Below are positions 38,705 to 48,856 of a DNA stretch of 64,000 nucleotides, piece after piece. Made by a program: the position numbers and the translations under genes. Numbering within the stretch: the first letter of the stretch is position 1; each line of letters opens with the position of its first letter. Source of the stretch: Pseudogymnoascus verrucosus (Eukaryota); assembly GCA_001662655.1 (NCBI GenBank), contig KV460220.1; one strand, 5' to 3'. A model generated the notes under the pieces. The model saw only the letters and a list, made by a program, of their open reading frames with translations, did no database searches and was not told the origin of the DNA.

Positions 38705-39163
38705 GACAAGGAAACGGCTACCATGACTCCCTTGGAAATAAACCGGCTTGCAAGGCACGTGGAGTCTAGAGCCCGGCTTTTAAAACTGTATGGTTGGGAA
38801 TGTGAGGCAAGGACCACCGCACTACATTCATTTACCAGATGTCTCGGGTTTATAATCTAAACTTTCAAGTCAAGAGCTTCAGCAAGGAGCTTGGAGGCCA
38901 AAATCCATGCCTCAAATGTCACGAAAACAAAAATTCCTTGCGTTCTGGAAAAGGCCTCCGTGTCACCTTTAATATTATATAAATAGTCAAGAATGGGACT
39001 GTTTTCTATCTCGTCAAACTCATTCCTGCTCCAATTCTCACAACTGGTATGCAATTTCACTGAAATATCTTGTAAGTTGTAGTACACATTCAAAGATTGA
39101 TTCAAGTTCCGTGTACTGAACCTACCACAGCCAATAAAATTCAACTCGGCCCACAAACCCACC

Positions 39164-39505
39164 ATGAAGTTCCAACTCTCCACCCTTGCCATGCTCGGCT
39201 CCTTTGTGGCGTTCACCCATGGGGTATGTCTCAAGGTCAGCGGCAACGCTCATATTATCCCCGAAACCGGAGATATGCAAATATTTGCCGTTCTCTTCAA
39301 CGATGGCGAGCTTGTTTGCAGTATCAATCGTGCCACCTACGATGAGCAAATGTGGTTGGACTGCCACGATGGGCACTATTCGGCGATCCCCGATGACCTT
39401 AGCGTTGTCCTGTATGCACACAACAAGGTGGATTACAAAATTCCACTCAAACCGGAGAGTGCTGGAGCAGATGCCTGGGCCTGGAACGCCCAATTAGGTT
39501 GTTAA
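39164..39505 (+). CDS. Small secreted 4-Cys protein, array copy 1 (113 aa)
   Basis: Signal peptide ...FTHG-VC; NDGELVC-x14-C; DDLSVVLYAH; terminal LGC. TATA at ~38976 and a candidate 5'-UTR intron ending at 39130. Confidence 0.85.
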   Translation: MKFQLSTLAMLGSFVAFTHGVCLKVSGNAHIIPETGDMQIFAVLFNDGELVCSINRATYDEQMWLDCHDGHYSAIPDDLSVVLYAHNKVDYKIPLKPESAGADAWAWNAQLGC

Positions 39506-39943
39506 TTATAGCGCATCCTACTGTGATGACAGCGCAAGCCAAGATTCAGCGCACACCTATACTCTTCTCAGATATCCAGTGGACAGTGCTTGGAGACATG
39601 GGGGGTTGAGGTTCCTGATGCTCTTCGGCTCCGGTCAGATAATCATTCTTTTCAAATTGGGTATGAATAAACGATTGGAAACGTATCTTTTGAGTGCTGG
39701 GAACACACCGCCTCATTCCTCAATTTAGTCGATCATTTCTGGGGAATTTAAATTATGCAGCTTCCACATAATATTTGCTTGTGGCGCCCATGTGACACTC
39801 TATCATTCATTCTTATCTGCGAGTCCCTACTATGTCCCAAGAGGCATGCAAGGGCCGTTCTGATATCATCGGATATTCGTGCAATCCAAGAGTCTGGAAG
39901 AGGTTCCATGTGACCTGAGGATTCATATTAGCAATTTTAGCTA

Positions 39944-40277
39944 ACAGGGTTTATCTTGGTGGTCTCATTTTTGAGTAACTGGCTTTTCGATTGCAGTCCT
40001 GGGTGACTGAAATATTTTACTTGGACTACAGTTACTATGAACGCTGTTGTTCTGCATGGTACCTCTTTAGGCTTTTCGGCGCCTAAGAGTCTGAAGGAGG
40101 CTGCCTTTGACTCGAGGATCTGTACCAGCCATTGCATCAGACAGGGTTTATCTCGTTAGGCTCATTTTTGAGTAATTGACATATTGGTTGCAACTCTAAG
40201 TTATTGAAACCTCATACTTGAACTACAGTTACTGAAGACACTATTGTTATGTGTAGCTTCTCTTGAGACTTTTGGTC
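39944..40277. repeat. Diverged direct repeat, two ~135-bp copies with 197-bp period (39944 and 40141)
   Basis: ACAGGGTTTATCT...CTCATTTTTGAGTAA...TACTTG(G/A)ACTACAGTTACT occurs in both copies. Confidence 0.75.
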
Positions 40278-40825
40278 AGCACGAATATCAGCCTTTTTCT
40301 CCCTTAACAAAGTATCATATTTAGAAACTCGTAAACAAAAATATGTGGTATGAAATCTAATTCATCTCAATTATAGAGTGAGACAATTGTTTTAGTTCTG
40401 TATTCTTATTATTGGCAACTGCACAATGCTCATTGGCGTAATTTTCGGACCCCATCTTCACTCCCTTAGAATGGCTCTTTGCCCCGCCCCTAGAATGCAC
40501 CACAATGAAAGCCACTCTTTTCCTCCTTGCATGACTGCTCCACTCGTAAACCTAGACCTAGAATTATGTGTCAAGAAAGCAGCTGAAGTGGCTTGAATCC
40601 CATGCTGTTCGTGTGATATGGTTTTGCGTGCACATGTCTCATTGATATTACCCCGTCCTCATTTTGATCGACTTAGTTTGAGAGATCTCAAAGCTATATA
40701 TATGACCTGTACCCTCCCTTGAAAGTTGATTTTAGTATCTTATATCATAGAATCAAGAAAAGCATCATACCGCTACATGTATTATCGCAACCAGACCAAA
40801 ACAATCCCAGACCACTTCAGTCACC

Positions 40826-41167
40826 ATGCAGTTCTTCCATCAACTTTTGGCGTTTATCTCGCTCCTCGCCGTTTCTAATGCTTGCCTTATACTCGACGGA
40901 TTTATGACATATGACAAGAAAGGCTTTACGGGAACTCTGAACGACAATGGCACAGAAGTTTGCAAGTGGAGTGTTAATCTTAACAGTGCTTCCAACTTTG
41001 CCAACTGCCTTCCAGGATTTGCGGCATATATTACACACGATGCAACAATCGTTGGATACAGTAACCATGGGAAAGAGTTCGCATTTACAACCAGGATCAG
41101 TACTATTCCAGCATATCCAGGACTTCCTATTAATTTCAGCGTAACAGCTAAAAATTATGGTTGCTAG
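40826..41167 (+). CDS. Small secreted 4-Cys protein, array copy 2 (113 aa)
   Basis: MQFFHQLLAFISLLAVSNA|CLILDG...GTLNDNGTEVC-x14-CLPGFAAYI...YSNHG...YGC. TATATATA at 40695. Confidence 0.9.
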   Translation: MQFFHQLLAFISLLAVSNACLILDGFMTYDKKGFTGTLNDNGTEVCKWSVNLNSASNFANCLPGFAAYITHDATIVGYSNHGKEFAFTTRISTIPAYPGLPINFSVTAKNYGC

Positions 41168-41721
41168 GTATGGAATTTCAAGAACTCGCCCCCTTAAAAT
41201 GATATCAAATAATAATAAATTACAGATTAGCTGCATCATACCGCGAATTTGTTTTCTTACATTCTATTTTCACTTCTTCCTTTTCTCTGGACGTTCCACG
41301 ATCACTCGTTGGGCTTCCATCAAGTTTCTTAACTACAAGTTCGCCGCACACACACTTCACACTCAACTCTTTTCATATTCATCAAACACCACTACATTCA
41401 GCACTCCTTGCGCCTTCTTACTCCTAACGCCTTCTACTTGTTACAATTCATCACTCCTTACGCCAGCTACTTCTTGACTTCGTTACCCCTTACGCCTTCT
41501 ACCCCTTGCTCCCGACCCCTTATTACTCCGCACCTGTCACCGATCACACCTTCTACTCCTCACCGCTTACCCCATCTACCATTTACTCCTTCTACCCCTC
41601 GCTTCTAGATCGATAATACTCCTACATTTGTCAACATTCAAACCTCCTTCCGTGCGCATACTGCACGTTTCCACATTCTTCAAACACGTCAGTCATCACA
41701 CACCACCATTTCAGAGCTACA

Positions 41722-42066
41722 ATGAACTTCCTTCAGCCAATCTTCGCTCTTCTTTTCAGCATTACCTTTTCTCACGCATGCCTGACCCTTGACGGCGTGT
41801 ATACTGTTTCTGGTGCTCATTCTAATACAATCTCTGCAACCCTCAACGATAACGGGAAAGTTACCTGCAAATTCAGTGGCACCATTGACCAAGACCATTA
41901 CTTCGCGAACTGCATTCCAACATTTGCATCATACATCCACAGAGATTTGACCAAGCTTGCTTACAGCAATGACGGTCGGGAATATGTGATCGACGTTAAA
42001 GCGACGAGAGACTTCAACAACTTTGAGATCTACGATAGGCTCTCTGCTCGAGCGTTCTGTGAATAG
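41722..42066 (+). CDS. Small secreted 4-Cys protein, array copy 3 (114 aa)
   Basis: ...FSHA|CLTLDG...ATLNDNGKVTC-x14-CIPTFASYIHRDL...AYSNDG...LSARAFCE. Confidence 0.9.
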   Translation: MNFLQPIFALLFSITFSHACLTLDGVYTVSGAHSNTISATLNDNGKVTCKFSGTIDQDHYFANCIPTFASYIHRDLTKLAYSNDGREYVIDVKATRDFNNFEIYDRLSARAFCE

Positions 42067-42251
42067 GTATAAATACGTCCACAGTTTTACGACTTATTTG
42101 TGGCAACTAATATTGACAGTTTCGCGCTCTCCGCCTAGTTTTTCTCAAATCTATCATCTTGATTGCTGCACAGCAACGTTGATCTTCCCCACCTTTTCAT
42201 TGCCTTGCTTAGTTTCAGACACAAAACAAAAAAACACATTTCGATATCACA

Positions 42252-42584
42252 ATGAAGTTCGCTTTGTTGCTTTTGGTTCTCCTCGCATCCTTGGCCAATG
42301 CCTGCCTCGTCTTTCACGCAATCTACGATCGGGACAATCATATGATCAAAGGAACTATTGTTGATAACGGCAAACAGACCTGCACTTTTAGTGGAAGGGT
42401 TGACGAAGAACATCACTTTGCGAACTGCATCCCAACTTTTGCGTCATATATTCAAAAGGATTTAAATATCGTTGCATATAGCAACGGCGGCCACGAATAT
42501 ACCTTTCGGGTCGATAGAGAGATTTATAATCCACGTCCTACGTATTATCACTACGTTCTTTCAGCACGGGTTTTCGGGTGTTAG
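42252..42584 (+). CDS. Small secreted 4-Cys protein, array copy 4 (110 aa)
   Basis: MKFALLLLVLLASLANA|CLVF...GTIVDNGKQTC-x14-CIPTFASYIQKDL...AYSNGG...LSARVFGC. Confidence 0.9.
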   Translation: MKFALLLLVLLASLANACLVFHAIYDRDNHMIKGTIVDNGKQTCTFSGRVDEEHHFANCIPTFASYIQKDLNIVAYSNGGHEYTFRVDREIYNPRPTYYHYVLSARVFGC

Positions 42585-42792
42585 CAGCAATAATATACCA
42601 ACTAGTTTCTCAAACTAATCCCGCATACTTTCACCTCAGAGGCAACTCGATCTCGTTTGGAACCTTGACACCTTTGTTCCCAGTTTTTTGACAGCCGCCA
42701 ACAATCTTCTAGCGATATCAGATCCTTTCACAAATTCGGCTCTTTCATCATTCGACCCTTTTCAACTTTTTACTGTTCCTGCGACTTCCACA

Positions 42793-43140
42793 ATGCAGTT
42801 CCTCCAAGCAATTCTCGCTTTCGTCGTTGTCTTCAGTGTCACCTTTTCAAGTGGTTGCCTCGTCTTCGATGCCACATGCAACATCGGCACTTCAAAAATC
42901 GTCGGAACTATGACAGACAATGGCCAAAAAACTTGCACGTTTAGCGGCATAGTTGCCAAAGACAAGAAATCTCTGTTTGCATCTTGCATCGAAGGCTTTG
43001 CATCCTACAGTCGCTCCGATCTAGAAATCGCCGCTTACAGCAATCGCGGAAACGAGCACTTATTCCCTGTCGCAAAGGAGGTCCACTCGACAAATCCCAG
43101 GAATCAATACTATACTCTCTCGGCCCGAATGTATTGTTAG
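42793..43140 (+). CDS. Small secreted Cys protein, array copy 5 (115 aa; true start at ATG 42793; one extra Cys)
   Basis: MQFLQAILAFVVVFSVTFSSG|CLVFDATC...GTMTDNGQKTC-x16-CIEGFASY...DL...AYSNRG...LSARMYC. Confidence 0.9.
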   Translation: MQFLQAILAFVVVFSVTFSSGCLVFDATCNIGTSKIVGTMTDNGQKTCTFSGIVAKDKKSLFASCIEGFASYSRSDLEIAAYSNRGNEHLFPVAKEVHSTNPRNQYYTLSARMYC

Positions 43141-43329
43141 GTAAGACCTTTAAAATTCACTCCCCCTAGATTTGTGTTGCGTTTGGGTGTTTCTCTCGTT
43201 TTGCATACTTCGTCATATATGTTTTCATGTTTGTAATCTCACGGATTTACTATATAACCACATATGCACTCAACATCTCTTTGCCCTCATCCCTTTTATT
43301 TAAATCTGCTAATTAAATTGAAATTCAGG

Positions 43330-43680
43330 ATGAAGCTTTTCCAAACACTTGCAGTTATCTCCCTCTTCACCGTCGGCTACGCATGCGTCAAGCTGGATGG
43401 CAAATACAACTGGGGTACTCACGACATTAGCGCAACAATTACAGACAACGGCAAAAATACTTGCACTTACAGTGGCAAACTTCGCGACGCACATCAATTT
43501 CTCTCTTGTATCCCTAGATTTTCTGCCTTCATTGATGGATCCTTAACCTGGGCTTCTTATAGCAACAATGGCAACAAGGGGACCATTCGAATCATAAAAG
43601 AGACAACTGGGAAAGGGGCAGATGGGAATGGACTGGGCAAAGATGAATTTTTTCTTGCCGGACAAGCGTTTGGGTGTTAG
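43330..43680 (+). CDS. Small secreted 4-Cys protein, array copy 6 (116 aa; true start at ATG 43330)
   Basis: MKLFQTLAVISLFTVGYA|CVKLDG...ATITDNGKNTC-x14-CIPRFSAFI...SYSNNG...AFGC. Confidence 0.9.
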   Translation: MKLFQTLAVISLFTVGYACVKLDGKYNWGTHDISATITDNGKNTCTYSGKLRDAHQFLSCIPRFSAFIDGSLTWASYSNNGNKGTIRIIKETTGKGADGNGLGKDEFFLAGQAFGC

Positions 43681-43872
43681 GTGCGACTTTTTTACTTGTC
43701 CCCCCTATTGGCAATTGCGGCTAATTTTGCGTCACGTCAGCTTCTCCTACTTTGTCAAACGCGAACGCAGTTACCTCGCTGACCTCTTACTTCCTTCATT
43801 TGTTTTCTCTCCTTTATTGCAATCAAAAACGTCAAAACTCCTCGCCAAGATCTCCCCAAATATCAAATCACA

Positions 43873-44211
43873 ATGAAGGTCATTCAGTCGCTTTCCGTTA
43901 TCATATCCGTCGTCGTCGCCTGCACCAATGCTTGCATTGTTCTGGACGGAATTTACTCATCTGATACTGGGGCAGTCAAAGGAACTCTTGTTGAGAATGA
44001 CGTACAGACCTGCACTTTGGCCGGAACCCTGGATAGAGACGCTTACCTCTTCACCTGCATCAATGGCTACTCTGCATCTTTTATTCGGAAGGACTTGACT
44101 GCCGTCACCTACAGAGACAACAATGGACGCACATACCAATTCCAAGTTCAAAAGTACCAGCCCGACAAATCTGACCCTCAATATCGACTTTCTGCCAGAA
44201 TGTTTTGCTAA
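43873..44211 (+). CDS. Small secreted 4-Cys protein, array copy 7 (112 aa)
   Basis: ...CTNA|CIVLDG...GTLVENDVQTC-x14-CINGYSASFIRKDL...TYRDNNG...LSARMFC. Confidence 0.9.
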   Translation: MKVIQSLSVIISVVVACTNACIVLDGIYSSDTGAVKGTLVENDVQTCTLAGTLDRDAYLFTCINGYSASFIRKDLTAVTYRDNNGRTYQFQVQKYQPDKSDPQYRLSARMFC

Positions 44212-45280
44212 GTGAGCCATTCATCAGCTAATTTCTAACACCAGTGACTGATCCTCAATATAGTTTCAAGCCACCTTGGCCCCTACCATCTGGCAACTTC
44301 AAAATGGTCGAATTGGTCTTGCGTTGGACTTTCTGCTTCTCTGTAATGGCATAGCGATATGGGTCAAATGGATTTCACAATGGGGCGAGAGTTTTCACTT
44401 CTGCCGAGAGGGTTTTGCTGGTGCCATGAGGGCTTCCGAGATTTTCCATTTCCTTTTCCTTTTCCTTTTATTTCTGATTTGAGATTCTTCACAGCCACTA
44501 CCAGATGATTTTATTCTATTAATACCCTTAGTTTAGTGGGCAAATGTGATTGATTTATCACAATATCTTCGGTCTTCTCTTCTATTCTGACACCATACTT
44601 CATGTGAAAATCATTTTCCGGCAGCGCACCACAATGCAATCCCCGGCCCCTATAAAATGAAGTAGACTTCTCACTCGCGCCAACTATCAGACTAATGTGT
44701 GCTGTAGTCCTCATGGAATCGTCACTCAGAAGCAAGTGCGCAAAGGATCTTCATAGCTTATGCGTTTCAAAACTCGAATAAGTTGAACGACCCAAAAGCC
44801 ACAGGATTCTGGCGCGTGCGGCGGCATATCAGGCACCACTAAATATTATTTATTACGGTTAGCTCCCTGTCTTTTTGTTTAGCTATCTATGTCGTTGGTT
44901 GGTTTTGATAAAGGCTCATAACCTGATAATAGCAGTTTACAGCGATTATGAGGTCTCGCCCAAGGCCACAGTTGCTATGGACAGCAGCAGCCCTGCACAG
45001 ATACTGTGCTCGCAGCGTAGGGCGTCATGGTTTGTTGCACGACTCAAACGGGACAGGCCTTTTTAAACTCTCGGGCCGCACGAGTACCACTACTCGCATA
45101 TTTGCGGGTCAGATCTCCAAATCGATAGAGTGAGGTTTAATTAAAGTGACACTATGGTACTCGTACAGTTTCCTCCTTTTTCTACAACTAGAAGGCACTT
45201 AATATTCCTCCAATATCATACTGTGTATAAAATTCGAATTTCGGTTTTCAGCAAGTCTGCACTACATTTTTTAAGATGAG

Positions 45281-45600
45281 ATGGAAATTATAATTTTACT
45301 TGCATTTCTCAACAGCATTGCGGGTTAGCAAAAAATGGGCGCAATTTGGACGGTGATTGAAAAGTACATATTGCTACGGATGCACCTATTCTCACTTCCG
45401 AGACAGGATGACCAAAGATGGGAAGATGTTGATGCACGTAGCCGAAATTAGGTAGGGCTCCGTTCAATATTACCCCAATCCAAAGGACTCATGGAGGTTA
45501 TAGGCAAGTGAATGTACAGTTGGGCACTGAAAGCTGCCCTGGATTACAACAGGATGTCATACAACAGACAACGGCGCTATCCGGCCTTGTTATTCGTCTC
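45281..45600 (+). pseudogene. Probable heavily decayed array copy
   Basis: TATAAAA at 45226. MEIIILLAFLNSIAG* (cf. copy 8 ...FLNSSIGC), then in shifting frames LDG, DGKML, CT*-KLG..QYY (cf. copy 9 DGVRVCTWTGKLGKTEQYW) and DYNRMSY (cf. copy 8 DFTRFAY), in the expected order. Confidence 0.45.
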
Positions 45601-46220
45601 GGTACACTCATTAGATGAGGAAACGAACACTTTTCAAATGGGAGAGGACAACCCCCTTACTTCAAGCACCCACCTTACATTCAAACCCAGGTTTTTTTCA
45701 GAAGGAGTAACTGGTAAATTTATTTTGCATATCAAGAAGGCTGTTTTATTGAATTTTGTACACTGGTAAAAACCAACAGTACCATGGTTACATCTGTCTT
45801 CTTGCATGTATATAGAGCTGCTTACGAGAAAAAAACTGCATGATTGCCGCGGTTGTTTCTTCGAGCAGCAGATAGACAGTCCCTTACTGCATACTTCTGG
45901 GCGCATTCTACAGAACAGAAGCCATATGAACACATTAGTCTTATCTATGACTTCTATGACAAATTTATGTGCAGTTGGCTCTCGTTAATTAGGGGTGTTC
46001 TGAAGGATGTTTATCCATTTTCCTTCTTATAAATACCCATCCGAAAGCAGAGAATGTCTTACTTTGCCATATTACTCAATTCATCTCGAGGGGTTACTTC
46101 CAGTTGTCTAGCACATCTGCGACACATTTTGTAAGTCCTCGGACAATTTTTCGTGAACTAAACAAACTGCCATTACTAAAACTTTCTTTAGCCATTTCAC
46201 TTGATCGTTATTAGATAAAA

Positions 46221-46574
46221 ATGAATTTCCGACTTATTGCTCTCGTTGTTTTAGGATTGTTCCTGAATAGCTCCATTGGATGCCTTGTATTTCTAGGCGA
46301 TCTCAGTCCCAATACAGGTATCATCCACCTAGTAGGGGAGGTTCTTGAAAACCGCGTGCGAGTCTGCGCGATCAATAGCGAACTCAAAACCAGCCCGATT
46401 TGGCTCCAGTGCATAACCAACCAATACTCGGCTGCTGTCTCGAACGACTTTACGAGATTTGCGTATTCGCACGGCTCTGCTGAATACAGGCTCGACGTCA
46501 CCAAGACGGCCAGAGAAAGGCTTTTGGGCGATGCGATTCGATGGACTCTCAAGGGGCAGGGTTATGGGTGTTAA
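46221..46574 (+). CDS. Small secreted 4-Cys protein, array copy 8 (117 aa)
   Basis: MNFRLIALVVLGLFLNSSIG|CLVFLG...ENRVRVC-x14-C...NDFTRFAYSHG...GYGC. TATAAATA at 46028; candidate 5'-UTR intron 46131-46191. Confidence 0.88.
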   Translation: MNFRLIALVVLGLFLNSSIGCLVFLGDLSPNTGIIHLVGEVLENRVRVCAINSELKTSPIWLQCITNQYSAAVSNDFTRFAYSHGSAEYRLDVTKTARERLLGDAIRWTLKGQGYGC

Positions 46575-47368
46575 GTGAGAATATTTATGTGCTATCCAGT
46601 TAGACCTGAGTACGAAAAGGGCGCTGGATATACGAGAAACAACACTAATACATCATAGGAGAAAATTGGGGTGGATGGATGGAAATGTTTGGATGAAATA
46701 TCATTATATGAAAGTAACGTGGATGCTGTTATTCTTTTAGTTTTGAATACGGCGCTCCTTGAATGGCGTTTTCCATCTTATAGCTTTCCGTCTGCATCAG
46801 TAGTGAAGTCACTCATTTGTTCAGATAGCGAAACAAACATATACTCATATCTAAGCTTCATAGCATCGCTTCCCACTTTTCTCCTATCTTTACAGCACTA
46901 TCAACCAAATTACCAAGCATGTTTGGTGGGAGTCATGTCTTCCCGTGAAATCGCTTTTAGAAATGAAGTGAAATATTAGAAGCTTTGTCATAATTTCGTT
47001 GATTTGTAAAGGATTTTATAGCCAGCATTACTATAATCCAAGACCTCCTAGAGGTTATACCCTTGTAGGTTGGTTGTCTCGGTCTCGGAGGATATTCAAC
47101 ATTCCTGATCAAGAATTTGCTTACTATAGCCAGAGATCTGCAAAAAAGGAACCACAGCTTCCATGTGACTTGGAAAACTACGATTCCTCTAGTATAGCCA
47201 TTTGAGAAAGTTTTAATTGCCGCGAGGCATTAGAATGGCTATATAAGTCGCAGATTTCCGTGAGAATTAATGCAAAATAAAATTATCTGGACTTGAACTC
47301 CTAACTGCGCCATCTCCCATAAATTTATTTCATAGCACCGCACACGCTCACTCAACATCGCTGCCAAT

Positions 47369-47995
47369 ATGAAGTTGTAAGGCGGTCCTCACGTGATGGC
47401 ACGTGAGGTGCCACGCCGAAGGCAGCCCTACGGTGGAGCTGTCATTCGGGTATAGCCCGGTTATTAGGGTTCACAGGATAGGAAGATATATTAGGGGCTG
47501 GAGCCTCAGTGGAGGACTCCAGTCAATAGTCGCTGTATCTACGTAGACCTATTGTGCTTACTGAATACGATACCCTTCCTGCCTCCTGACCTGGTTCCCT
47601 GGACTCCCGTGAGACCCTAGGCTTACGCTTTACAGAAGTCCATAGCTGCTACGTTATTCCTCCTTGCATTTTATATTCGCCTCTCCGGTGCTTGCATCTA
47701 CTTCTACTCCAATGTAAGCAACGCAAGAGACTTTACAGGATCCGGATCCCTCATGGATGATGGAGTTCGGGTTTGCACTTGGACCGGCAAGCTTGGTAAA
47801 ACGGAGCAATACTGGCTTGATTCCACTGAAGGACACGCCGCCTTTGTTACCAAAGAATTCCATACCCTAGCATATTCTAAAGGTGGTCAAAATTTCCGCA
47901 TTCCATTGACATTTGAGCGTGTCAATGTAGAAGTGGAGCTTATCTACGGCAATGGGGAATCTTGTCAATGCGATGCCAAACATTACTGCAAGTGA
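47369..47995 (+). pseudogene. Array copy 9, interrupted just after its ATG by a solo LTR
   Basis: Removing 47376-47639 restores ATG AAG TCC ATA GCT...: MKSIAATLFLLAFYIRLSGA|CIYF...MDDGVRVCTWTGKLGKTEQYWLDS...AYSKGG...HYCK*. The third conserved Cys is Ser (TCC). TATATAAG at 47240. Confidence 0.85.
47376..47634. mobile_element. Solo LTR of an LTR retrotransposon (259 bp) with 5-bp target-site duplication GAAGT
   Basis: Starts TGTAAGGCG and ends CGCTTTACA (TG...CA termini, 8/9 inverted match). GAAGT at 47371-47375 and at 47635-47639. More GC-rich than its flanks; internal TATA-like GATATATTAG. Confidence 0.88.
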
Positions 47996-48856
47996 TAAAT
48001 TCGCCTGAAATCTATTTTGAGTCGGAACTTACGACTGCAAGTAAGCCCTTCCAATATCCATATGTCCTGAAGGCGCCCCATTAATTAATTAATTTTTAGC
48101 TATCTATACCTTCAACACCTTTTTCACTTCGAACTTTTGACACCTGTCTAGAAGTAACGCTTGGAAATTTATTATGCACTCCAGGGCGTCAGAATATCTT
48201 GTGACCTGATGGTCATTTTCGACTTAGTTGTGGCATTAAATACGAATCAAATGCTAAATTTTGCTTCTTTATGATTTAGTAGGATAATTATACAATATTC
48301 CCATGCGAATCAAACCAAACCTTTATAAAACATCCGAGAGTCCACCTATTTGTTACATCCAGAGACCCAATTATCCGCAGCAATTGTGTTGAACATTGAA
48401 CCAAATCCCTACGATTTTCTATATTGCCATATATTTGATAACATCACATTCTTTGCCACTTTTAGGTCACATGAGGCTAAATTCGCGTTGATCGTATGCG
48501 TGTGGATATCATAGCCCTCCTGTACACCTCCCTCGACGTTGGAATAAGATGCGCCAAATCACATGATGCGAACTAGGGCGGGATCAATAATTTTCCATGA
48601 TAACCAATCGGACACCAACGAACCTCGCTCGACGAGGCGTTGATATTTTGAAATTCTACATTTATTCCACATTTTACGCTGCACTATCGCATACGGTTCT
48701 TGCGCTCCATTGCTTATATACGAACCTAAACGGCCAGCGCATTATTTGCGTCCCACAATAGAAACCTCCGGCCGACTGGCCCGGACGAGGAAGAGCCTTT
48801 CAGCCTCGTCACCCCGCCTCATACATACACAGCAGTTCATGGGAAACGAATACCAA

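What the first reader, a model, noticed from the sequence alone, without database searches (positions are those of the whole stretch)
41165..46658. Splice donor on the first base after the stop codon in 6 of 8 array genes
Seen: TAG|GTATGG (41168), TAG|GTATAA (42067), TAG|GTAAGA (43141), TAG|GTGCGA (43681), TAA|GTGAGC (44212), TAA|GTGAGA (46575). Most have a branch site and YAG at normal fungal spacing: 42067-42119 (ACTAAT...CAG), 43681-43740 (GCTAAT...CAG), 46575-46658 (ACTAAT...TAG), 44212-44244 or 44263, and 41168-41225 (branch weak). The spacers show no other obvious similarity, so the intron position appears conserved. Inference: an ancestral intron at the exact end of the CDS, kept by selection. 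An exon junction at the stop would not trigger EJC-type NMD, and it could splice each CDS to downstream UTRs or to neighbouring cistrons.
Basis: partly seen in the sequence, partly recalled or inferred. Interest (0 to 1): 0.75.

Follow-up and report, generated by a model that had tools for sequence, protein, structure and literature searches.

The report
Intron signal directly after stop codons
In a tandem array of small secreted-protein genes of a Pseudogymnoascus fungus, most genes carry the signals of a short intron that begins on the very first base after the stop codon, an arrangement already shown by RNA data in one other fungal effector family.

Summary
Nine paralogous genes for small secreted proteins that end in Cys lie at 39164-47995 on the + strand. 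Six have GT on the first base after the stop, at exactly the coordinates given. GT occurs at 5.5% of window positions, so six or more of nine has p about 2e-6. Five of the six also have R at +3 and G at +5 (p about 1e-9). Four have a CTRAY branch 9-16 nt before a YAG, giving 52-84 nt introns like the local ones (p about 4e-5). The flanks are otherwise random, and none of 27 other long ORFs has GT after its stop. The best reading is a conserved 3'UTR intron that starts at +1. Splicing itself was not observed. The arrangement is not new: Rhynchosporium NIP2/NLP effector genes have an RNA-seq-confirmed intron "immediately following the stop-codon". This family has a different predicted fold, closest to Alt a 1/PevD1. 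Caveats: none of the six donors has T at +6; the gene 3 site doubles as a TATA box; gene 5 has no acceptor before the next gene's ATG. Verdict: new member of a known kind, moderate interest.

The parts
39164..39505 (+). g1, family member (113 aa, ends ...LGC). The stop TAA is followed by TTATAG, so there is no donor.
   Evidence: the ortholog in P. destructans is 82% identical
39072..39130 (+). Inferred 5'UTR intron of g1 (59 nt, GTAAGT...ACTGAAC...CAG), 33 nt before the ATG. A TATA box lies at -186.
   Evidence: the gene model P0029 of another species splices here
40826..41167 (+). g2 CDS (113 aa, ends ...YGC, stop TAG)
41168..41225 (+). g2 candidate 3'UTR intron, 58 nt, GTATGG...TTACAG, with no canonical CTRAY branch
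   Evidence: relatives X1 and X2 carry an 11-nt tandem duplication here and keep GT after the stop
41722..42066 (+). g3 CDS (114 aa, ends ...FCE, stop TAG)
42067..42119 (+). g3 candidate 3'UTR intron, 53 nt, GTATAA (no G at +5)...AACTAAT...GACAG. Its first bases also form TATAAAT, 184 nt before the g4 ATG.
42252..42584 (+). g4 CDS (110 aa, ends ...FGC, stop TAG). It is followed by CAGCAA, so the donor is absent.
   Evidence: g4 is nested next to g3 in the tree
42614..42639 (+). Possible relic 3' half of a lost g4 intron: ACTAAT, then 21 nt from the branch A to the intron's last base, a CAG (55 nt after the stop). It falls just outside the strict criterion.
42793..43140 (+). g5 CDS (115 aa, ends ...MYC, stop TAG)
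43141..43328 (+). g5 donor GTAAGA. The only usable acceptor is CAG at 43326-43328 with a TGCTAAT branch (188 nt), 1 nt before the g6 ATG. This span also holds the g6 TATA box (43251).
   Evidence: the donor is kept in the metagenome ortholog L001
43330..43680 (+). g6 CDS (116 aa, ends ...FGC, stop TAG)
43681..43740 (+). g6 candidate 3'UTR intron, 60 nt, GTGCGA...GGCTAAT...GTCAG
43873..44211 (+). g7 CDS (112 aa, ends ...MFC, stop TAA)
44212..44263 (+). g7 candidate 3'UTR intron, 52 nt, GTGAGC...GACTGAT...ATATAG
46131..46191 (+). Inferred 5'UTR intron of g8 (61 nt, GTAAGT...TACTAAA...TTTAG). A TATA box lies at -193.
46221..46574 (+). g8 CDS (117 aa, ends ...YGC, stop TAA)
46575..46658 (+). g8 candidate 3'UTR intron, 84 nt, GTGAGA...CACTAAT...CATAG
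47369..47995 (+). g9, a family member interrupted after codon 2 by a 264-bp repeat insertion (about 47371-47634). The stop TGA is followed by TAAATT, so there is no donor at +1.
48041..48099 (+). Candidate 3'UTR intron of g9 (59 nt, GTAAGC...TTAAT...TTTTAG), starting 46 nt after the stop. It is not significant on its own.

Best explanation
The array encodes small secreted, Cys-terminated beta-barrel proteins of a Pseudogymnoascus species. Their coding regions have no introns. The ancestor of most of them had a short spliceosomal intron in the 3'UTR whose first base is the first base after the stop codon: (T)AG|GTRNG or TAA|GTRNG. Purifying selection has kept that donor, and in at least four genes the CTAAY branch and YAG acceptor, while every other flanking base has been randomised. 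g4 lost the donor secondarily. The mechanism is inferred, not shown. U1 pairs with the stop codon plus GTRNG, and a 52-84 nt intron is removed. The resulting exon junction lies at the stop, so the EJC, deposited about 20-24 nt upstream (recalled), sits inside the ORF and the first ribosome strips it. The mRNA therefore gains the benefits of having been spliced (export, 3'-end processing, translation) without becoming an EJC-type NMD target, as a junction >=50 nt downstream would. A plausible origin is a one-step mutation of an exon-final CAG or AAG codon to TAG or TAA at a phase-0 intron. Shown: the sequence signals, their statistical excess, their position-specific conservation, and the precedent. 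Inferred: splicing, NMD avoidance, expression benefit and origin.
For: 1) GT follows the stop at 6 of 9 paralogs, against 0.055 per position (p=1.9e-6). GTRNG is present at 5 of 9, against 0.0061 (p=1.1e-9). 2) A strict 3' half (CTRAY 7-20 nt before the first YAG, total 45-95 nt) is present at 4 of the 6, against 0.042 (p=4.4e-5; 4 of 9 gives p=3.4e-4). 3) The candidates resemble 11 local introns that merge long ORFs: these are 49-88 nt long, and 9 of 11 have a CTRAY branch 7-17 nt from the 3' end. I picked those 11 by eye from a list that was pre-filtered for G at +5 or for AAGT/ATGT. 4) The conservation is position-specific. Pairwise identity is 0.62 at +1..+6 but 0.33 and 0.25 further out, and only 0.37 in the last 10 codons. 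Paralog proteins are 20-45% identical and sit on long branches. 5) In g3 an extra codon (Glu) follows the Cys, yet the donor still abuts the stop. 6) g4, which lacks GT, is sister to g3 inside the GT-bearing clade g2-g7 (support 82/73 and 80/81) and keeps ACTAAT...CAG 55 nt after its stop. 7) The one orthologous DNA obtained (L001, g5 ortholog, 66% aa identity) keeps TAG|GTAAGA. Relatives X1 and X2 keep GT after the g2 stop despite an 11-nt duplication. 8) Controls: 0 of 27 ORFs of >=200 aa and 6 of 121 ORFs of >=100 aa outside the array have GT after the stop. 9) Precedent: most Rhynchosporium NIP2/NLP genes have a 3'UTR intron immediately following the stop codon, confirmed by RNA-seq in all but NIP2.2 (passages). 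Those proteins also end in Cys. 10) Junctions >=50 nt past the stop trigger EJC-type NMD, and the EJC acts in Neurospora NMD (passage).
Against: None of the six donors has T at +6, against 8 of 11 local introns (Fisher p=0.009), so they are atypical or weak donors. g3's GTATAA lacks the near-invariant G at +5 and is also a TATAAAT box 184 nt before the g4 ATG, the same distance as the TATA boxes of g1 (-186) and g8 (-193). g2 has no canonical branch. g5 has no acceptor between 29 and 188 nt. The spacers between g3 and g7 are only 185-208 nt, which leaves little room for a spliced 3'UTR, a poly(A) site and the next promoter. g1, g4 and g9 do without the donor, so it is not essential to the family. 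The binomial tests assume that the paralogs are independent. Only one orthologous locus could be inspected base by base.
Confidence: 0.66

Rival explanations
1. Operon-like or overlapping transcription. Transcripts read through the 185-208 nt spacers. The stop-adjacent donors then pair with distant acceptors, for example g5 stop to 1 nt before the g6 ATG. This removes the next promoter or whole cistrons and joins a CDS to a neighbouring cistron or to a shared downstream 3' end.
For: Spacers g3-g4, g4-g5, g5-g6 and g6-g7 are 185, 208, 189 and 192 nt. This is far less than the mean 3'UTR plus 5'UTR of a related filamentous fungus (303 + 275 nt in Podospora, passage). For g5 the only acceptor is CAG at 43328 with a TGCTAAT branch, and the 159-nt AG-free run before it is the second longest on the + strand. 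L001 keeps a branch (ACTAAC) and an AG just upstream of the g6 ATG, at a shifted place. Polycistronic mRNAs are reported in basidiomycete fungi (listing and abstract start only).
Against: Four genes have complete short introns that need no distant partner. Acceptors are not enriched before the ATGs: the nearest YAG ends 33, 5, 7, 33, 71, 1, 102 and 6 nt upstream for g1-g8. TATA boxes precede g1, g2, g4, g6, g8 and g9, which argues for separate promoters. In L001 the CAG at -1 is lost. A read-through g5 mRNA would carry junctions far downstream of its stop and would be an NMD target under the rule quoted.
Confidence: 0.1
2. The GT(R)NG after the stop is a decayed relic or a hitch-hiking sequence. 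The ancestor had the intron, but the sites are no longer spliced and persist without function.
For: None of the 6 has T at +6. One of the 6 lacks G at +5, one lacks a branch and one lacks an acceptor. g4 shows that the donor can be lost while the gene stays intact.
Against: Neutral persistence is implausible. Bases +7..+66 are at random identity, and the paralogs are separated by protein branch lengths of about 0.1-1.9 changes per site. Even so, the donor and the 3' signals survive together in four genes (p about 4e-5 for the 3' halves alone).
Confidence: 0.1
3. The conserved bases serve something other than splicing: a favourable termination context (G at +4), a promoter element of the next gene (TATA at g3/g4), or a U1-binding site that modulates 3'-end formation without splicing.
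For: G follows the stop in 9 of the 27 control ORFs (my count from the listing), so G at +4 is common. GTATAAAT after g3 is a perfect TATA box at the distance seen for g1 and g8. The first 52 nt or so after the g5 stop are better conserved in L001 than the CDS.
Against: None of those 9 control G's is followed by T. A termination context does not explain R at +3, G at +5, or the branch and acceptor signals 40-80 nt downstream. The TATA reading applies to one site only.
Confidence: 0.09
4. Chance.
For: None beyond the small number of genes.
Against: p is about 2e-6 for GT, 1e-9 for GTRNG and 4e-5 for the 3' halves. 0 of 27 control ORFs have GT after the stop.
Confidence: 0.01

Closest known systems
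[quoted passage not shown] First reported for NIP2.1 by Kirsten et al. 2012, seen only as cited there. Penselin et al. 2016, PMC5118889, passages read.
   Same: Both fungi are Leotiomycetes. Both are multi-copy families of small secreted proteins of about 110 aa that end in a C-terminal Cys. The stop codon is directly followed by an intron in most but not all paralogs. One paralog departs from the rule in each case (NIP2.2 there; g4, g1 and g9 here). The CDS is otherwise intronless.
   Different: In NIP2/NLP the intron is confirmed by RNA-seq; here only the sequence signals are shown. The proteins differ. NIP2/NLP have six conserved Cys (NIP2 also a CRS motif) and a predicted five-stranded sheet with a helix, like SIX9/SIX11. 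This family has four Cys and a predicted all-beta barrel of nine strands. NIP2 paralogs are dispersed over the genome, whereas these genes form a tight tandem array.
EJC-dependent NMD triggered by spliced 3'UTR introns in Neurospora crassa. Zhang and Sachs 2015, seen only as cited. The rule is quoted from PMC6173133.
   Same: A Pezizomycotina fungus with spliceosomal introns downstream of the stop codon.
   Different: Those introns lie far enough downstream to keep an EJC and destabilise the mRNA. Here the junction is at +1 (or +46 in g9), inside the safe zone, so the opposite outcome is expected.
Alt a 1 / PevD1 (AA1-like) fungal secreted beta-barrel proteins
   Same: They are the best structural matches of the g4 model: PevD1 5xmz_A (Z 7.6, rmsd 4.2, 97 residues aligned), Alt a 1 4aud_B (Z 7.4, rmsd 3.5, 97 aligned) and Tsp1 7cwj_A (Z 5.6). 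The Foldseek top hit is Alt a 1 4aud_A (E 0.025, TM 0.50). They are similar in size, secreted, fungal and disulfide-bonded.
   Different: No Pfam match at E<=1. Sequence identity is 3-12%. Z is below 8, the range the tool calls common for unrelated folds. This concerns the protein, not the intron.
Polycistronic transcripts in fungi (Gordon et al. 2015, PMC4503453; search listing and abstract start only)
   Same: Closely spaced same-strand genes that may be co-transcribed.
   Different: They are reported for mushroom-forming basidiomycetes. No transcript evidence exists here, and most array genes have their own TATA box.

Membership tests
Stop-adjacent 3'UTR intron gene architecture (as in Rhynchosporium NIP2/NLP) | The splice donor GT is the first base after the stop codon | tested here: met
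   6 of 9 paralogs; p=1.9e-6
Stop-adjacent 3'UTR intron gene architecture (as in Rhynchosporium NIP2/NLP) | A complete intron: a branch site and a YAG acceptor at normal fungal distance | tested here: met
   Strictly met in 4 of 6 (g3 53 nt, g6 60 nt, g7 52 nt, g8 84 nt). g2 has an acceptor but no canonical branch. g5 has none before 188 nt.
Stop-adjacent 3'UTR intron gene architecture (as in Rhynchosporium NIP2/NLP) | The intron is removed from the mRNA (junction reads or cDNA) | not testable with these tools
   No transcript data could be laid on the region
Canonical Pezizomycotina spliceosomal intron | Donor GTRNGT | tested here: inconclusive
   R at +3 in 6 of 6 and G at +5 in 5 of 6, but T at +6 in 0 of 6 against 8 of 11 local introns
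NIP2 / NLP protein family | Six conserved cysteines, the last one C-terminal | tested here: not met
   Eight of the nine paralogs have four conserved Cys after the signal peptide; the fragment aligned for g9 (47753-47992) lacks the first one and has Ser at the third position. The C-terminal Cys is present.
NIP2 / NLP protein family | CRS motif (NIP2 only) | tested here: not met
   No CRS in the nine window proteins
NIP2 / NLP protein family | [quoted passage not shown] | tested here: not met
   The g4 model (pLDDT 87.7) has nine strands and no helix after the signal peptide. This was compared only with the description; no NIP2 model or sequence was available for superposition.
NIP2 / NLP protein family | Detectable sequence homology to NIP2/NLP | not tested
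   No NIP2 sequence could be obtained through the tools. Profile searches returned only Pseudogymnoascus-named or unnamed proteins.
Alt a 1 (AA1-like) family | Match to the Pfam family model | tested here: not met
   No such Pfam hit at E<=1 for any of the nine proteins
Alt a 1 (AA1-like) family | Alt a 1-type beta-barrel fold | tested here: inconclusive
   Top hits by two aligners, but weak: Z 7.4-7.6; Foldseek E 0.025, TM 0.50

The most novel reading that the evidence does not exclude
The compact part of the array (g3-g7, spacers 185-208 nt) is transcribed as overlapping or polycistronic pre-mRNA. The donors placed exactly at each stop codon let the spliceosome join a finished CDS across the next promoter or across whole downstream cistrons. 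For example, the g5 stop would be joined to the base before the g6 ATG, giving ...TAG-G-ATG.... Splicing rather than separate terminators would then define which cistron an mRNA carries and which 3' end it gets. That would be a eukaryotic, splicing-organised 'operon' of secreted-protein genes.
Probability: 0.08. Interest if true: 0.8.

Novelty: new member of a known kind. Interest (0 to 1): 0.4.

Why it matters
If the introns are spliced, this is a second protein family with a 3'UTR intron that starts on the first base after the stop. Its predicted fold differs from that described for NIP2, and it comes from a second Leotiomycete genus. That would make the arrangement look like a recurrent gene design for small, intronless, fast-evolving secreted-protein genes, not a curiosity of NIP2. 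It gives a clean natural test of two ideas: that splicing benefits expression, and that 3'UTR introns are tolerated only inside the NMD-safe zone next to the stop. There is also a practical point. Genome annotators ignore such UTR introns and mis-join neighbouring array genes (chimeric models P0001, P0002, P0024), so effector catalogues of these fungi are affected. The genus includes the bat white-nose pathogen. That species holds at least the g1-type member, the only P. destructans protein named among the hits.

Tried and rejected
- RNA evidence: no RNA holder was listed for window:40700-46700. The two runs that hold part of the stretch proved to be DNA contigs of relatives about 4-7% diverged, so they say nothing about transcripts. 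Only 40 of 479 base differences and 12 of 40 indels were displayed, so conservation of the donors in X1/X2 could not be read, apart from the 11-nt duplication at g2.
- Whole genome: none is held.
A narrower alignment found 1 locus among 207 pattern matches. The other collections hold no fungal genomes.
- Earlier findings of this scan: nothing by place, sequence or words.
- Link to NIP2 by sequence: profile and name look-ups returned only Pseudogymnoascus-named or unnamed proteins. The atlas returned unnamed Ascomycota clusters.
- IGY-motif SSP family of Marssonina: it has three coding exons and proteins of about 200 aa, so it is unrelated.
- Pfam: no family at E<=0.01. The weak AvrL567 (E 0.15) and other hits were rejected.
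- Acceptors generally sitting just before each ATG: not supported.
- A 29-nt intron for g5 and a 33-nt intron for g7 were rejected as shorter than any local intron (49-88 nt).
- One line printed ('>=5 of 9' 3' halves) wrongly counted g4, which misses the strict criterion by 1 nt. It is not used.
- Zhang and Sachs 2015 could not be read.
- Literature searches for other stop-adjacent introns in fungi found only the NIP2 work. That library lacks most subscription journals.

Full report
**What is there.** Window 39164-47995 (+ strand) holds nine paralogous genes (g1-g9) for proteins of about 110-117 aa.
- Each protein has a signal peptide, then a Cys at the start of the mature protein, two internal Cys, and a Cys at or one residue from the C-terminus.
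- The paralogs are only 20-45% identical to one another.
- No coding region is interrupted by an intron.
- g9 is broken after its second codon by a 264-bp repetitive insertion. The insertion is absent from two related strains.

Named database relatives all come from Pseudogymnoascus species. P. destructans has an 82% identical ortholog of g1. The window therefore comes from a Pseudogymnoascus (Leotiomycetes) other than P. destructans.

A profile search of 1.84 billion representatives found 141 proteins at E<=1e-3. Most are 105-130 aa long, and 75 of the 138 newly returned ones (P0042-P0179) end in Cys. No Pfam family matches.

An AlphaFold model of g4 (pLDDT 87.7) is an all-beta barrel. Its best structural matches, all weak, are the fungal secreted proteins PevD1 (Z 7.6) and Alt a 1 (Z 7.4; Foldseek E 0.025, TM 0.50).

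**The observation.** g1, g4 and g9 lack the GT. The excess over chance was measured on 127,800 window positions, both strands:
- GT occurs at 5.5% of positions, so six or more of nine has p=1.9e-6.
- Five of the six sites also fit GTRNG (frequency 0.6%), which gives p=1.1e-9.
- A strict 3' half was defined as CTRAY 7-20 nt before the first YAG, 45-95 nt downstream. It is found at 4.2% of positions but after four of the six donors: g3 (53 nt), g6 (60 nt), g7 (52 nt) and g8 (84 nt). This gives p=4.4e-5, or 3.4e-4 if all nine genes are counted.
- None of 27 other ORFs of >=200 aa, and 6 of 121 ORFs of >=100 aa outside the array, have GT after the stop.

The candidates look like the introns of neighbouring genes. 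Eleven introns that merge long ORFs are 49-88 nt long, and nine of them have a CTRAY branch 7-17 nt from the 3' end. I chose those eleven by eye from a list pre-filtered for G at +5 or for AAGT/ATGT. Their G at +5 is therefore partly by construction.

**Conservation.** Pairwise identity among the six sequences, anchored at the stop, is 0.62 at +1..+6. It falls to 0.33 at +7..+36 and 0.25 at +37..+66, and is 0.37 in the last ten codons. The donor is thus an island of conservation in randomised sequence.

The ML tree adds two points:
- The GT-less g4 is sister to g3 inside the GT-bearing clade g2-g7, which argues for secondary loss. g4 still has ACTAAT...CAG 55 nt after its stop.
- g8 (GT) groups with the g1 clade (no GT), but on long branches. 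The donor is therefore either ancestral to all copies or arose twice.

Other details point the same way:
- In g3 an extra Glu codon follows the Cys, yet the donor still abuts the stop.
- The only orthologous DNA I could obtain is a 1155-bp metagenome contig with a g5 ortholog (66% aa identity). It keeps TAG|GTAAGA.
- Two related strains carry an 11-nt tandem duplication at the g2 stop that still leaves GT after the stop.

**Weak points.**
- None of the six donors has T at +6, against 8 of 11 local introns (p=0.009).
- g3's GTATAA lacks G at +5 and is also a perfect TATAAAT box 184 nt before the g4 ATG. That is the same distance as the TATA boxes of g1 and g8.
- g2 has no canonical branch.
- g5 has no acceptor between 29 nt and 188 nt. 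The 188-nt option (TGCTAAT...CAG) ends one base before the g6 ATG and would excise g6's TATA box.
- The spacers between g3 and g7 are only 185-208 nt, so neighbouring transcription units must overlap or be co-transcribed.
- No transcript was seen here. Splicing is inferred.

**What is known.** The arrangement has a direct precedent. [quoted passage not shown] RNA-seq confirmed it in all but NIP2.2, and it was first seen in NIP2.1 (passages). All of those proteins except NIP2.2 end in Cys.

NIP2.1 is predicted to be a five-stranded sheet with a helix, like SIX9 and SIX11, and has six Cys. The present family has four Cys and a nine-strand barrel. On those tests it is not a NIP2 member, although no NIP2 sequence was available for a direct comparison.

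Other literature seen:
- About 3% of Podospora genes have 3'UTR introns.
- Junctions >=50 nt past a stop keep their EJC and trigger NMD, and the EJC acts in Neurospora NMD.
- Five searches of the open literature found no other fungal family with this feature.

**Interpretation.** The best-supported reading (about two in three) is a conserved, spliced 3'UTR intron that starts at +1 in at least g6, g7 and g8, and probably in g3 and g2. It was inherited from the array's ancestor and lost in g4. Its placement would give an otherwise intronless mRNA the benefits of splicing while keeping the junction inside the NMD-safe zone.

The rivals are:
- cross-cistron splicing in an operon-like array (about 0.1);
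- unspliced relic sites (about 0.1);
- a non-splicing role such as termination context, a TATA box or U1 binding (about 0.09);
- chance (about 0.01).

**Verdict.** The phenomenon is a new member of a known kind, not a new one.

Noticed in passing
window 47371-47634: A 264-bp insertion sits right after codon 2 of g9, with a 5-nt duplicated target (GAAGT). It leaves ATG AAG TTG TAA. The insertion is absent at this site in both related runs X1 and X2. Its word depth is 553 against about 17 for the flanks in X1, so it is a high-copy small mobile element. No terminal inverted repeat of >=14 nt was found.
   Followed up: partly
window 39072-39130 and 46131-46191: g1 and g8 each have a textbook-looking intron in the 5'UTR (GTAAGT, branch, YAG; 59 and 61 nt), about 95 nt downstream of a TATA box. 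A GenBank gene model of another species (P0029) splices the g1 one but starts translation at an upstream ATG.
   Followed up: partly
window 48041-48099: g9 has no donor at +1. A good candidate intron (GTAAGC...TTAAT...TTTTAG, 59 nt) starts 46 nt after its stop, still inside the 50-nt NMD-safe zone.
   Followed up: no
window 41157 (relatives X1, X2): Both related strains carry an 11-nt tandem duplication that includes the g2 stop codon. The protein end is unchanged, and a second TAG|GT copy lies 11 nt downstream.
   Followed up: partly
P0001, P0002, P0024: Database gene models of other Pseudogymnoascus genomes, and one metagenome model, fuse the N-terminal half of one array gene to the next gene (g5+g6, g4+g5). 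These are most likely annotation artefacts caused by the tight spacing. P0024 could instead be a real unequal-crossover allele.
   Followed up: no
P0044: A 1126-aa metagenome protein contains seven matches to this domain in one reading frame, without the terminal Cys or stops. It is either a genuine multi-domain relative or a fused array.
   Followed up: no
window 44935-45243: A 309-bp stretch in the 2-kb gap between g7 and g8 is absent from the related strain X1 (contig joint 44934 to 45244).
   Followed up: no
window about 39920-40060 and 40130-40270: Two diverged direct copies of a stretch of about 130 nt (cagggtttatct...catttttgagtaa...ctacagttactg...) lie between g1 and g2. Seen by eye only.
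   Followed up: no
window 43141-43192 vs L001 900-951: The first 52 nt or so after the g5 stop are better conserved between the window and the metagenome ortholog than the coding region. The g4-g5 spacer, by contrast, is barely alignable. This stretch could be a regulatory element of g5 or g6.
   Followed up: partly
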